The position numbers were made by a program, and so were the translations under genes. From contig OZ024757.1 of the NCBI GenBank assembly GCA_964016885.1, positions 15,252,001-15,316,000 on the forward strand: a DNA stretch of 64,000 nucleotides, given 5' to 3'. Origin of the DNA: Eledone cirrhosa (taxonomy: Eukaryota). Below, piece after piece: positions 2,561 to 54,999 of this stretch. The stretch's first letter is position 1, and each line of letters opens with the position of its first letter. A model generated the notes under the pieces. That model did not search any database and was not told where the DNA came from. It saw only the letters and a program-made list of their open reading frames with translations.

Positions 2561-2584
2561 CACCCTTGGATCTATGATATTCAT
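2561..2584 (-). CDS. Candidate 24-nt microexon MNIIDPRV
   Basis: Acceptor cttttcatcaaacag, strong donor GTG|gtgagt, phase 0-0. Confidence 0.45.
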
Positions 2585-2810
2585 CTGTTTGATGAAAAGT
2601 GTTTGAATTTATCTAAAAACCTTTCATCATAAGTTGATGTGAGAGCTTTAGTTATGTTACATTCTGAACATGATGCATTGTGTCCTTGAGCAAGACACTC
2701 TATTTCACATTGCTCCAGTTTACTCAGCTGTAGAAAGTGTTGCGATGTCACTGGTGCCAAGCTGTATTGGCCATAGCCTCTCTCTTGGACATCATTGGTG
2801 GCATGGAGAG

Positions 2811-3090
2811 GGGAAACTGGTATGCATGGGAGACTGCTGGTCTTCCACAAAACAACCTTGCCCAGACTTGTGCCTCGGAGGGGAGACTGTTATGCATGGG
2901 AGACTGCTGGTCTTCCACAAAACAACATTGCCCAGACTTGTGCCTCGGAGGGGAGACTGGTATGCATGGGAGACTGCTGGTCTTCCACAAAACAACCTTG
3001 CCCAGACTTGTGCCTCGGAGGGGAGACTGGTATGCATGGGAGACTGCTGGTCTTCCACAAAACAACCTTGCCCAGACTTGTGCCTCGGAG
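2811..3090 (+). repeat. 4 x 70-bp tandem repeat within a SINE-like element
   Basis: Unit gggagactggtatgcatgggagactgctgg...tgcctcggag. A single-unit relative lies at ~53960-54290 (-). Confidence 0.92.
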
Positions 3091-50600: not shown

Positions 50601-53600
50601 TAAAGAGAGACAGGTATGTAGATACATACAGGTATATATATACAAACACACATATGCACACAAATTGTTGTAAGTGATAATATATATGAATGCTATCATT
50701 TGTAATTCATATGAAACACATATATAATTGTATATAAACATTGAATTGAATATACAAAATAATATATACAATAAAAACAAATTTTCTGGCAATTTGCAAT
50801 TACCAAAGAAAAGATTTTAATTGGTTATTTGTTGAAATTTGAAATCAAAATGTATTGAGGACAAAAAAAATAAACATTTAAACATGAAAATGTGAAGCTC
50901 AAGTTGAACAAGCAATGAAGGTGTTTGTTTATATTAACTGAACATTTATATTATCAAGAAGAATATAAAAATATATTATTTAAGTGACTAAAATTGATTA
51001 GAAATAAAAACTGCTATGTTGCCTTCTATCTAGCTAGTGTCACTCATTGAAATGGTTTTAGCAACAGATTTCAACAAGAAAAGCAAGGTGATAATTAAAA
51101 CAAAATAATACTTTAAAAACTTAAAAAAAACAAAAACAAATTAAAACAAAAACATTTTTAATTGATATGCTAATAACATAACAAAAATTGAATGAATGTG
51201 GTGGTGTGTAACTGTGAACTGATGTGCAGCGGCCTTGACAATTTAGCAACGAACTGCCTGCAAGCAGTTACAGGCAAACAAAATTTTCACAGAAGATAAC
51301 TATTACAGATGCATAGAAAAACTTATGCTTAATCTATAACAGTGAGGACTCAGTGGGGGGTAAAAAACATGCGCTTATTAATAATTAAAGAACAAAATAG
51401 ATTTTAATATATATATGTAAATAATATAAAAATGTAAAGTAATAAAGAGAGATAGAGAGAAAGAGAGTGAGAGCATACCAGATGCAATTAATCTCGGATT
51501 ATTAGATACTTTTACTAAATCTATTATTGCATAAATCAATGTGAAAGTGTTATACTGTGAAAATTAACCCTTTCGTTACCATATATGGGTGGGGTCTTAT
51601 GAAAGATACTGCCTATGGTTTTCAAATAATTTTGAAATTAATTATGATTTTGAAAGGATTTTCATTCTCAAGCTGGTGTTTGGAACATAACTTAACAAAG
51701 GTTAAATATAAACACTTTAATCATTTCATTACCATATTTCTCATGAAAGACACTGCCTATGGTTTTCAAACAATTTTGAAAATAATCAAGAATTTTGAGA
51801 GATTTAGTAAAATAACTTTCCCATTATTAATTTGGTGTTTGGAACATAACTTAAAGGTTCTTACAAAAAATTATAATGGAAGTTTTTTAAAAATAAATAT
51901 AAACATGTTAATCCTTTTGCAACCATATTTCTAATGAAATACACAATTTAAGCTGGTGTTTGGAACATAAAGTCGTTAACATAAAATTATGATGGAAGGT
52001 TTTTTAGATAAATATTACCTTGAAACTAAGTTTTGTATGACAGAACTGGAGGGTAATTTCTGGCAGTTTGGCATCAAAAAGGTTAACATTAAATTAGGGC
52101 AGTGAATTGGCTGTATCGGTAGAGGGTCGGACACCATGCTTTGCAGCAAAGAGTTACGGCCCTTTATGGTCTGAGTTCAAATCCCGCCGAGGTTAACTTT
52201 GCCTTTCATCCTTACAGGGTGGATAAAATAAAGCACCAGTAATACACTGGGATAATTGCTGGCCTTGTGCCAAAAGTAGAAAAAATTAAATTAAGTTCAT
52301 TTGATGAATCATCGAAGCATTTGGCAGATTTTATATTTGTAAGTATGAGAATCCCAGATACAGACAATAATTATTATAACATTCAATCGCTATAAATAAC
52401 AGCTTAGAAAATTGGGTAAAATACCTCTAGAGTCAGGAGGTCACTTTTCTCTGTCTCTAGGAGTATTTTACTCAATTTTATAAGTTATTATTTATAGCAA
52501 TCGACTGTTACAGTTATTATTTGGGATTCCGACATTTTCAAATTTAAGTTAATTTTAATGTTTGTAAAGAAGTGTAGCTACTGACATATGTTATTGTTTT
52601 AAAAATTTATGTGACAGTATTTCAAATAATATACACTCTATTTTAATTAATTAAGACTTTTAAGGGATTTACTAGATAAAATTATTGAGCACTTTAAAAC
52701 GGGCATTTTCTTCATAGAATCAAAGGTGGTTTTGACTTTGGTTGGTATTTAAAGGGTTAATGAAAAACTTTAATAAGATAGTGACTTATATAAAATCTAA
52801 ATAGGAACCATATAAGATGTGTGGCTTTATTTCATAGAACCAGAGCTAGCTTTGGCCTTGGTCGATATTAATAGAATTAATGATGAATTTTGAGGAATTT
52901 ACTAAAATTATTAACTATTTCATTACTAAGACAGTGACTTAACATATGGTTCTGATATAAAATCTAATTTAAATAGAAACCCTTTAAATTGTTTCATAGA
53001 GCCAGGGCTAGTTTTGATTGGGTTGGTATCAAAAGGGTTAAACTAATCACAAAGATCATGGATTCTCAAAAAAATTAAATAAATGCATTCATGTAGTGAT
53101 TCTATTTTTACCACTATCCAATAAACTCAATAAGAAGAGAAGAAATGTGTGCATGCATGATTGTTTCTACATGCATTTTCATATTGATACTCTTTAATTA
53201 TGTGGTGACATCTGTTTATGTACTGCATAAACAATATATCTCAAGGCTTAGTGGATCTAATTTTGGCACAAGGCCAGCAAATTTTTGGGGAAGGAGGAAG
53301 TCAATTATATCGACCCTGTATTTGACTGGTACTGTACTTTATCAACCCCAGAAGGAGAAAAGGCAAAGTTGATCTCAGTGGAATTTGAACTCATATTTCA
53401 AAATAGTGAAAGCAGGGTTGGCATCAGGAAAAAAGAAAAGTGGTAAAGTGGCAGTGTTATTAAAATATCAGATAGAGTGTTCTGTGTTCAAATCTGCCAA
53501 GATCAACTTTGCCCTTCATCCTTGATGAAATCAACTTGCCATTGCAGCTGATAAATAAATAACCAGTTCACAATATCTCCCTGGAAGAAATCGGCTGTGT

Positions 53601-54984
53601 ACCGACAAGGAGAGGGATGGGCTCTGTCAGGTTTAAATAGCCAATGCAAGCCATATATCACAACCATGCCTGAATGACTTGAGCCCATAAATGGATGGCA
53701 TCAAGAAGGGCATACAACTGAAGAAAACTACCTCAAAAAGTCTTGTCTGGCTTATGTCAGCATGGAAAGATGGGCATGAAAAAGATGATGATGTTGATAA
53801 TGACTGTTCAGAGGTAAATCTTGATAATGTAAGTAAAAAGCATTTTATAATGGAATGCTTTTGTTTGCAAGTCTACCTTATAGGGAGAGCTCTCTTCAGT
53901 CATGTACATTACATATATATATATATATGCATATATATATAATATATATTTGTGTATAGACCCTCTTGGGTCTTGAATGACCATGGGTTTTGCATCTAGA
54001 AAGTTTCACTTCTGAGGCACAAGTCCAGGCAAGGTAGTTTGTGGAAGGCCAGCAGTTACCCATGCATACCAGTCAGTCTCCCTTCTCCAAACCACCGATG
54101 TTGTCCAAGGGAAAGACAATGACTGATAAAGCTTGGCACCGGTGACATCAAAACTCATTTCTACAGCTGAGTAGACTGGAGCAACATGAAACAAAGTGCC
54201 TTGCTCAAAAACACAACGCATTGCTCGGTCCTGGAATCAAACTCACAGACCTCAGGATTGTCAATCCCATGCTCTAGCCACTAAGCCATGCATCTACTTT
54301 ATATAACAAAACTTTTTAGGGACATCTAATTAAAAAAAATAATTAATTTAGATTATATCTGCTTTGGTATCCTAGATATATTGGTTTCTAATTTTGGCAC
54401 AGGGCCAAAAGAATGTAGGGTAAATATAGGTAAAGTTGATTAAAACAACCCTACTACTCCACTGGTAAATTATTTTATCAACCTCGATAAGAAAAAAGAC
54501 AAAGTTGACCACGGAGGCATTTGATCTCAGAATGCTTTGTGACAATTTGTTCTAGCTTTTTATGTTCTGAGTTCAAATCCTGCTTAGGTCAATATTGCCT
54601 CTCATCTTTCTGGGGTTGATAAAATAAAGTACACGTTAATCACTGGGGTCTATATAAACAATTTCCCCATCCTCGAAATAGTTAGCCTGTGCCTAAATAA
54701 ACAGAAACCATTATTTTTATTTTTGGCTGTATTGGTAGAGTCTCAGACACCATGTTTCACAGTATTTAGTTACATCCACAATGGCATTTTAACCAATGCT
54801 CAACCAATTCTGCCTAATTGTCCTCACCAAACCTAACACATCCTAGATATATTGCCTAGGATTCTAATTTTAGAACTGGTATGCTCTATAATAATAACAC
54901 TCTGAATAATAACAATTGAAGATGTGCAATATTGGTGAAAGTAAAGTTTTGTTTTTGCACACATTCATGCTAAGAATTACTGAC

Positions 54985-54999
54985 CTCATCCTTCTTCTC
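54985..54999 (-). CDS. Candidate 15-nt Cav2 microexon EKKDE
   Basis: Strong acceptor ataccttttttgcag, donor GAG|gtcagt, phase 0-0, purine-rich, GCATG just downstream. Confidence 0.55.

What the first reader, a model, noticed from the sequence alone, without database searches (positions are those of the whole stretch)
2561..54999. Possible microexon cassette array immediately after the Cav2 IQ domain
The IQ exon ends in phase 0 and no constitutive exon is recognisable in the next 56 kb. Unique islands hold frame-preserving, stop-free phase 0-0 candidates: EKKDE (54985-54999), a 48-aa acidic exon (38738-38881), GKKIIQLCGLFQ (37860-37895), HCLVE (32842-32856), EVINKFQK (32641-32664), LQYSESEE (16144-16167), LCWSVDVHDE (12606-12635), MNIIDPRV (2561-2584). 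Combinatorial inclusion next to the calmodulin-binding site could diversify presynaptic channels. AG...GT pairs arise by chance in AT-rich DNA, so several candidates are probably false.
Basis: partly seen in the sequence, partly recalled or inferred. Interest (0 to 1): 0.75.

Follow-up and report, generated by a model that had tools for sequence, protein, structure and literature searches.

The report
Octopus Cav2 post-IQ cassette exons
Three of the eight proposed small exons behind the calmodulin-binding region of this octopus calcium-channel gene match exons in squid and octopus channel records and are likely optional acidic inserts at a splicing hotspot already described in molluscs; the other five have no outside support.

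Summary
The window holds part of an octopod Cav2 gene (minus strand). The IQ exon (56617-56726) ends in phase 0; the next anchor exon (RPPSFF...) starts 266 bp beyond the window, so the intron is 56,882 bp. All eight candidates exist as AG...GT stop-free phase-0 stretches, but so do 1,978 such stretches in this intron (2,039 antisense). Three are real by homology: EKKDE (54985-54999), the 48-aa acidic exon (38738-38881) and LQYSESEE (16144-16167). They occur in this order in squid and octopus records, and other records skip them. The 48-aa exon is in print as an Octopus splice at this site (PMC5818475), and Aplysia has two PCR-tested microexons at the same junction (PMC10657410). The 5-6 aa exon is pan-molluscan. 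GKKII, HCLVE and EVINK have fair splice signals but no homologue (open, about 10-20% each); LCWSV and MNIID are likely false. A 33-aa exon of squid and O. bimaculoides is not detectable here. Likely role: an adjustable acidic spacer after the IQ helix; function untested. No RNA evidence for this species was obtained. Real but known: low interest.

The parts
62965..63070 (-). Cav2 exon KLIRMNMP...KISS (end of EF-hand region / pre-IQ)
   Evidence: Matches O. sinensis protein P0100; borders; PF08763 partial hit below cut-off
62383..62487 (-). Cav2 pre-IQ exon (..DEM...PPNH)
   Evidence: PF08763 above cut-off
56617..56726 (-). Cav2 IQ exon (LNDRK...KIYTGLLVAENWRAYKASQ...SLKM), ends in phase 0
   Evidence: identical to octopus records
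54985..54999 (-). Supported 15-nt microexon EKKDE (pan-molluscan 5-6 aa acidic cassette)
   Evidence: EKK[DE]E directly after the IQ exon in 8 of 16 cephalopod records, exact EKKDE in Argonauta; EEKEE/EEKDE/VEDKEE/EDSKEE/EVLDE in gastropods and bivalves; splice score rank 2 of 1,978
38738..38881 (-). Supported 144-nt cassette exon, 48 aa, acidic and Tyr-rich (22 D/E, 3 K/R, 9 Y)
   Evidence: In 11 of 16 cephalopod records; 41/48 identical to O. sinensis, 31/48 to squid; listed as an Octopus splice in PMC5818475 Table 1
37860..37895 (-). Unresolved candidate GKKIIQLCGLFQ
   Evidence: Splice score rank 9 of 1,978, unique DNA, AG-free zone 115 nt and UGC at -14; no homologue; hydrophobic, with a competing GTAAG at its second base
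32842..32856 (-). Unresolved candidate HCLVE
   Evidence: Rank 7; acceptor follows an ATT microsatellite; no homologue
32641..32664 (-). Unresolved candidate EVINKFQK
   Evidence: Strong donor, weak acceptor, rank 13; no homologue
16144..16167 (-). Supported 24-nt microexon LQYSESEE, coleoid-conserved
   Evidence: LQYSDSEE (7/8) directly before R[PQ]PS in 4 of 16 cephalopod records (0 of 100 shuffles reach the score); the 18 intron bases before it give the same six residues in a decapodiform-type record, P0011
12606..12635 (-). Likely false candidate LCWSVDVHDE
   Evidence: Acceptor -1.8, donor -1.0 (GTTAAA), rank 787; no homologue
2561..2584 (-). Likely false candidate MNIIDPRV, inside a decayed repeat
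   Evidence: Rank 109; repeat hits span it; no homologue

Best explanation
The 57-kb intron after the IQ exon of this octopus Cav2 gene holds three in-frame exons (EKKDE, a 48-residue acidic Tyr-rich exon, LQYSESEE) that match squid and octopus channel records and are likely included or skipped by alternative splicing, which would set the length and negative charge of the linker between the calmodulin-binding IQ helix and the distal C-terminal tail. Shown: sequence, phase 0-0 borders, order, homology, and that records with and without the exons exist. Inferred: that this species splices them the same way, and that they are neuron-regulated. Inferred and untested: the mechanism. All three add up to 61 residues with net charge about -23 to a likely disordered linker, next to a basic IQ exon (6 K/R, 2 D/E) and a basic start of the RPPS exon. 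This would tune channel trafficking, active-zone coupling or phosphorylation (Tyr in acidic context, S-E-S-E-E casein-kinase-2-like sites; motif names recalled) more than switch calmodulin regulation. I put the three exons at about 0.9 and the spacer/charge mechanism at about 0.45.
For: Squid record BAA13136.2 (P0016) reads IQ-EKKEE-48aa-33aa-LQYSDSEE-RPPS; O. sinensis X1/X2 read EKKEE-48aa-LQYSDSEE; O. bimaculoides records show 48aa alone or EKKEE+48aa; O. vulgaris X9, Sepia pharaonis (2 records) and one unnamed record skip all. Counts among 16 cephalopod records: EKK[DE]E 8, acidic exon 11, LQYS 4, skip-all 4 (not independent, 7 are O. bimaculoides isoforms). Genomic order in the window matches, with introns of 1,617, 16,103, 22,570 and 16,409 bp. 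Gastropod and bivalve records show the same site with 1-4 optional inserts and skip forms within one species. Aplysia PCR distinguishes none, DPVRLPK, NHNEK and both at the same KM|RPS junction. PMC5818475 Table 1 lists the Octopus LFWED...NQRP insert and oyster VEDKEE at this site. Conserved acceptor bases before LQYS.
Against: No junction read for this species was obtained; most records are gene models, so exon connectivity rests on annotation. The acidic exon drifts fast (41/48 vs O. sinensis, while the last exon is 98.6% identical to octopus records) and is expanded by an Asp run in Argonauta (65 aa), which fits a loosely constrained spacer as well as a tuned element. Tyr spacing shows no helical face (p 0.31-0.68). 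In Aplysia, including or dropping exons 45-48 did not change depression or its reversal. Lymnaea Cav2 lacks buffer-resistant CDI (PMC8980814 passage), so a strong calmodulin effect cannot be assumed.
Confidence: 0.8

Rival explanations
1. The array is larger: GKKIIQLCGLFQ, HCLVE and/or EVINKFQK are real, rare or lineage-new microexons, giving 4-6 cassettes.
For: Their donors score 8.1-10.0, at or above the median of the gene's own donors. At acceptor >=2.3 and donor >=8 the intron has 2 hits (EVINK falls just under the cut) against 0.26 per 57 kb on the antisense strand and 1.08 downstream of the gene (cut chosen after seeing the candidates). The same scoring recovers real small exons elsewhere in the gene (GALGIN, QEAAEKKKLE, EEAAEKEKLA, GYCYE, DYYYDD). 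GKKII has a 115-nt AG-free zone and a UGC at -14, features reported for eMIC-dependent microexons. Haliotis has four inserts at this site.
Against: None occurs in any protein fetched, including the squid record with four inserts. At acceptor >=4.5 and donor >=5.5 chance gives 2.2-5.4 hits per 57 kb and out-of-frame lengths give 7 and 2; the intron has 6, of which 2 are the supported exons and 2 lie in repeats. The small exons confirmed in the C-terminal tail are acidic or Tyr-rich; GKKII is hydrophobic.
Confidence: 0.25
2. The three exons are real but largely neutral passengers of a neuronal splicing programme: inserts in a disordered linker with little effect on the channel.
For: Insert sequences at this site differ freely across molluscs; Asp-run expansion in Argonauta and 7 changes vs O. 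sinensis; the 33-aa exon of squid and O. bimaculoides is undetectable here; no effect on depression in Aplysia, whose authors raise this possibility.
Against: The 5-6 aa exon is kept across cephalopods, gastropods and bivalves; LQYS[DE]SEE and its acceptor bases are kept between octopods and decapodiforms; the 48-aa exon keeps length and most Tyr positions between squid and octopus. Initial PSP differed in Aplysia.
Confidence: 0.3
3. The acidic 48-aa exon acts as a built-in calmodulin competitor or Ca2+-binding acidic patch that folds back on the basic IQ/pre-IQ region and changes Ca2+-dependent inactivation.
For: Charge complementarity only: net -19 insert 5 residues or fewer from the end of a basic IQ exon. 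Analogy to the Cav1.3 C-terminal modulatory domain (PMC12149502 passage).
Against: No helical Tyr face; low-complexity sequence with no Pfam family; atlas look-alikes are generic acidic proteins under 0.9.
Confidence: 0.12
4. All candidates are chance AG...GT pairs.
For: About 2,000 such stretches on either strand.
Against: Three match peptides at the right place and in the right order in squid and octopus records.
Confidence: 0.02

Closest known systems
Octopus bimaculoides Cav2 'large insert LFWED...NQRP' (PMC5818475 Table 1) and O. sinensis / O. bimaculoides / Argonauta / Heterololigo Cav2 records
   Same: Same gene, same KM|RPPS junction, same three exons in the same order.
   Different: This genome has EKKDE and LQYSESEE variants, 7 changes in the acidic exon vs O. 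sinensis, and no detectable 33-aa exon.
Aplysia CaV2 alternative exons after the IQ domain (DPVRLPK, NHNEK, large splice; PMC10657410)
   Same: Two phase-0 microexons at the orthologous junction used alone, together or not at all; the downstream RPS exons can also be skipped, as in octopus records P0002/P0010.
   Different: Peptides are unrelated in sequence; Aplysia has no 48-aa acidic exon in the material I read.
Gastropod and bivalve post-IQ cassettes (EEKEE/EEKDE + PQDEE/HHEDE/QQDEE; VEDKEE; EDSKEE)
   Same: 5-6 aa acidic first cassette, evidently orthologous to EKKDE; several optional exons in a row.
   Different: The longer inserts are lineage-specific; orthology of LQYSESEE to the gastropod xxDEE exon is only suggested by position and acidic end, not tested.
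eMIC/SRRM4-dependent neural microexons (PMC8797185)
   Same: 15- and 24-nt frame-preserving exons in a neuronal ion channel.
   Different: Neither supported microexon has UGC in -25..-4 or an unusually long AG-free zone (19 and 55 nt vs median 57 for this gene); dependence untested.
Vertebrate Cav2.1 cassette exons 43/44 after the IQ region (recalled; not confirmed)
   Same: Optional short exons in the proximal C-terminal tail.
   Different: No sequence relation tested; likely independent.

Membership tests
Cav2 alpha-1 gene | Ca_chan_IQ domain | tested here: met
   PF08763 above cut-off for two of three window exons tested
Cav2 alpha-1 gene | Orthology to named cephalopod Cav2 and C-terminal acidic-WC PDZ ligand | tested here: met
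   38 exon blocks map to O. sinensis P0100 in order; last exon ends TGG TGT TAA, 97-99% identical
Cassette exon (EKKDE, 48-aa, LQYSESEE) | AG/GT borders, frame kept, no stop | tested here: met
Cassette exon (EKKDE, 48-aa, LQYSESEE) | Present in some products and absent in others | tested here: met
   In records of relatives: 8, 11 and 4 of 16 include, 4 of 16 skip all; within O. bimaculoides EKKEE is present or absent. Gene models, not reads.
Cassette exon (EKKDE, 48-aa, LQYSESEE) | Junction reads in this species | tested here: inconclusive
   No usable RNA evidence obtained (see Tried and rejected)
Cassette exon (GKKII, HCLVE, EVINK, LCWSV, MNIID) | Homologous insert in relatives | tested here: not met
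   No match in 123 Cav2 records with an IQ exon or any other fetched protein; rare isoforms can be missing from annotation
Microexon (3-27 nt) | Length | tested here: met
   EKKDE 15 nt, LQYSESEE 24 nt; the 144-nt exon is not a microexon
eMIC/SRRM4-dependent neural microexon | UGC near the 3' splice site and long AG-free zone | tested here: not met
   No UGC in -25..-4; AG-free zones 19 and 55 nt; features from PMC8797185, which are enrichments rather than strict rules
eMIC/SRRM4-dependent neural microexon | Neuron-specific inclusion lost without Srrm234/eMIC | not testable with these tools
   Needs tissue RNA-seq and knock-down

The most novel reading that the evidence does not exclude
Coleoid Cav2 carries a modular post-IQ array (5, 48, 33 and 8 aa, plus possibly octopod-new microexons such as GKKII, HCLVE, EVINK) whose highly acidic Tyr-rich exon acts as a splice-controlled intramolecular modulator of calmodulin feedback or a kinase-docking patch, letting cephalopod neurons tune presynaptic Ca2+ entry from a single Cav2 gene; this lineage lost the 33-aa module and may have gained new ones.
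Probability: 0.12. Interest if true: 0.6.

Novelty: already known. Interest (0 to 1): 0.25.

Why it matters
It fixes the exact cassette exons of the presynaptic calcium channel tail in a further octopod and separates three real exons from chance. Only one close Cav2 locus turned up in this genome, so splicing is a main source of channel variety. The additions over print are small: EKK[DE]E as a pan-molluscan microexon, LQYS[DE]SEE as a coleoid-conserved microexon with conserved acceptor bases, and apparent loss of a 33-aa exon here. These give defined constructs for testing what the acidic insert does, which none of the papers I read has tested.

Tried and rejected
RNA evidence: no RNA holder listed for window 54900-56800 (21 rows were guessed RNA with small shares, 3 rows unclassified). 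Contigs of 4 of those 21 runs laid on 37400-41700 covered only microsatellites and low-complexity spots, with no cover over the acidic exon and no joints; uninformative.

Complex prediction of the acidic exon with the EF/pre-IQ/IQ region (P0002 436-594): no answer, score 0.01, alignment not used; no evidence either way. ESM Atlas for the acidic exon: hits 0.78-0.81 to generic acidic proteins, leads only. Tyr helical-face idea rejected.

The 33-aa exon was sought by tblastn, ungapped scan in six frames (best scores 34-36, shuffles 33-46) and a genome search (best E 0.89, elsewhere): not found. The top-scoring unlisted candidate GLQP (20904-20915) is inside a repeat with 91 overlapping hits; QKQSGYQ (10716-10736) and IFCFSK (36333-36350) also overlap repeats: rejected. 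A search for shorter proteins gave only three known records; the representative search gave no new cephalopod post-IQ isoform. Earlier findings: none. The splice-site matrices rest on 36 acceptors and 35 donors picked automatically from this gene, some donors misplaced, so ranks are rough.
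Full report
Gene and layout. The window is AT-rich, microsatellite-laden DNA at G000:C18:15252001-15316000. On the minus strand lie four exons of a voltage-gated calcium channel up to the IQ exon; those used here are 63070-62965, 62487-62383 and the IQ exon 56726-56617. Two of three tested pass the Pfam Ca_chan_IQ cut-off. The IQ exon is identical to octopus Cav2 records. Mapping O. sinensis P0100 on 664 kb of G000 gave 38 exon blocks in order, ending in the acidic-WC tail, so this is the Cav2 orthologue of an octopod. 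The IQ exon ends in phase 0 and the RPPSFF exon starts at window -266, giving a 56,882-bp intron. That exon is not strictly constitutive: records P0002 and P0010 jump from the acidic exon to PSEKQ, like the Aplysia 'large splice'.

Observation. All 8 of 8 candidates are present as described. As a class they are not above chance: 1,978 sense and 2,039 antisense stop-free phase-0 AG..GT stretches of 12-150 nt in this intron. With splice-site matrices from this gene's own exons, ranks among the 1,978 were EKKDE 2, HCLVE 7, GKKII 9, LQYS 12, EVINK 13, acidic exon 16, MNII 109, LCWS 787.

Homology decides three. Among 16 cephalopod records covering the region (7 O. bimaculoides, partly assigned by accession series because names were cut; 2 O. 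sinensis; 1 O. vulgaris; 1 Argonauta; 1 Heterololigo; 2 Sepia pharaonis; 2 unnamed), EKK[DE]E follows the IQ exon in 8, the 48-aa exon occurs in 11, LQYSDSEE in 4, a 33-aa exon in 2, and 4 skip all. The squid record BAA13136.2 (a cloned cDNA by my recall) reads IQ-EKKEE-48aa-33aa-LQYSDSEE-RPPS, the order found in the window. The window's acidic exon is 41/48 identical to O. sinensis and 31/48 to squid. Unnamed record P0011, closer to Sepia and squid (76-78 of 82) than to octopus (67), joins LQYSDSEE to RQPS and carries six intron-derived residues identical to those read from the 18 bases before the window's exon, which points to conserved acceptor sequence. In 123 Cav2 records with an IQ exon (of 132 examined, mostly molluscs), the first insert is EEKEE, EEKDE, VEDKEE, EDSKEE or EVLDE in gastropods and bivalves, with skip forms in the same species and up to four inserts in Haliotis. 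EKKDE alone is too short to be significant against shuffles (11 of 100); its support is position, exact match and acceptor strength.

The other five. None matches any fetched protein. MNIIDPRV sits in a decayed repeat and LCWSVDVHDE has background splice sites: likely false. GKKII, HCLVE and EVINK stay open. At acceptor >=4.5 and donor >=5.5, 9-51 nt, the intron has 6 in-frame hits (2 supported, 2 in repeats, GKKII, HCLVE) against 2.2 per 57 kb antisense, 5.4 downstream of the gene, and 7 and 2 for out-of-frame lengths. At a post hoc cut (2.3, 8.0) it has 2 against 0.26-1.08. The same score finds real small exons elsewhere in the gene, 4 of the 14 hits in other introns, so a high score has some value. 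I give each about 10-20%.

A missing module. The 33-aa exon of squid and O. bimaculoides could not be found in the intron or genome. The window has no N, but an assembly deletion is not excluded. The simplest reading is loss in this lineage, since both a squid and an octopus have it.

How it likely works. Shown: three phase 0-0 exons that can be added in frame in eight combinations; five patterns appear in records of relatives (none; acidic only; EKKEE+acidic; EKKEE+acidic+LQYS; all four in squid). Inferred: alternative splicing in this species, probably neuron-type dependent as in Aplysia. The supported microexons lack the UGC and long AG-free zone of eMIC targets, so the regulator is open. 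Inferred and untested: the inserts add up to 61 residues and about 23 net negative charges (48-aa exon: 22 D/E, 3 K/R, 9 Y) between the basic IQ exon and the basic start of the RPPS exon, acting as an adjustable, likely disordered spacer with phosphorylation-type motifs. Fast drift, the Asp-run expansion in Argonauta and the absence of a helical Tyr face fit a charge/length element more than a folded domain.

Comparison with print. PMC5818475 (passages read, incl. Table 1) lists, for the Aplysia site DPVRLPK+/-NHNEK, oyster VEDKEE and the Octopus 'large insert (LFWED...NQRP)'. PMC10657410 (passages, sections 6 and 8, text of the supplement) reports four alternative exons in a row after the IQ domain, differential use in sensory neurons, no change in depression with all or none of them, and a differing initial PSP. 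PMC8797185, PMC8980814, PMC5749111 and PMC12149502 were seen as passages only. A full-text search for the peptides found LFWED and VEDKEE in PMC5818475 and no paper with LQYSDSEE or LQYSESEE (one other listed paper holding the string 'lfwed' was not opened, six are on welding). Listings showed no study of cephalopod post-IQ exons; the library lacks most subscription journals. Vertebrate Cav2.1 exons 43/44 are recalled only.

Verdict. Real in part, and known in kind and largely in detail: three exons supported, three open, two likely false. Interest 0.25.

Noticed in passing
window 16168-38737 (intron): A 33-aa cassette exon present in squid BAA13136.2 and O. bimaculoides XP_052831401.1 between the acidic exon and LQYS is not detectable in this genome: likely lineage-specific exon loss, or an assembly deletion.
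   Followed up: partly
G000:C18 about 15224615 and 15219701 (window -27385, -32299): Two further Tyr-rich phase 1-1 microexons in the distal tail, GYCYE (15 nt; GYFYE in octopus records) and DYYYDD (18 nt), optional in cephalopod records.
   Followed up: yes
G000:C18 about 15467931, 15403798, 15396339, 15376695: Small exons in the I-II and II-III linkers of the same gene (GALGIN, QEAAEKKKLE, EEAAEKEKLA, ANRNNTQP) match cephalopod records; the two 30-nt II-III exons look like a tandem duplicate pair.
   Followed up: partly
window 57364-60734, minus strand: Near-complete non-LTR retrotransposon ORF (955 aa; endonuclease, reverse transcriptase, PHD-like finger) in the intron just before the IQ exon, continuing in another frame to about 57364.
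   Followed up: partly
window 62965 / 62487 splice junction: The codon split by this intron reads A|CT (Thr) where octopus and squid records have Ala (GCT); a genomic A at the last exon base could be a plain substitution or an A-to-I editing site (speculation).
   Followed up: no
window 20904-20915: Best-scoring splice-site pair in the intron (GLQP, 12 nt, in frame) lies in a SINE-like repeat with 91 overlapping hits in 664 kb; a possible exonisation substrate, no support.
   Followed up: partly
window 14165-17239: The conserved LQYSESEE microexon sits in a short unique island inside a 3-kb AT microsatellite array.
   Followed up: no
window 63130-64000, 31851-32333, 29886-30227, 2808-3094, 6363-6808: Minisatellite arrays with units of 58, 48, 48, 70 and 147 bp.
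   Followed up: no
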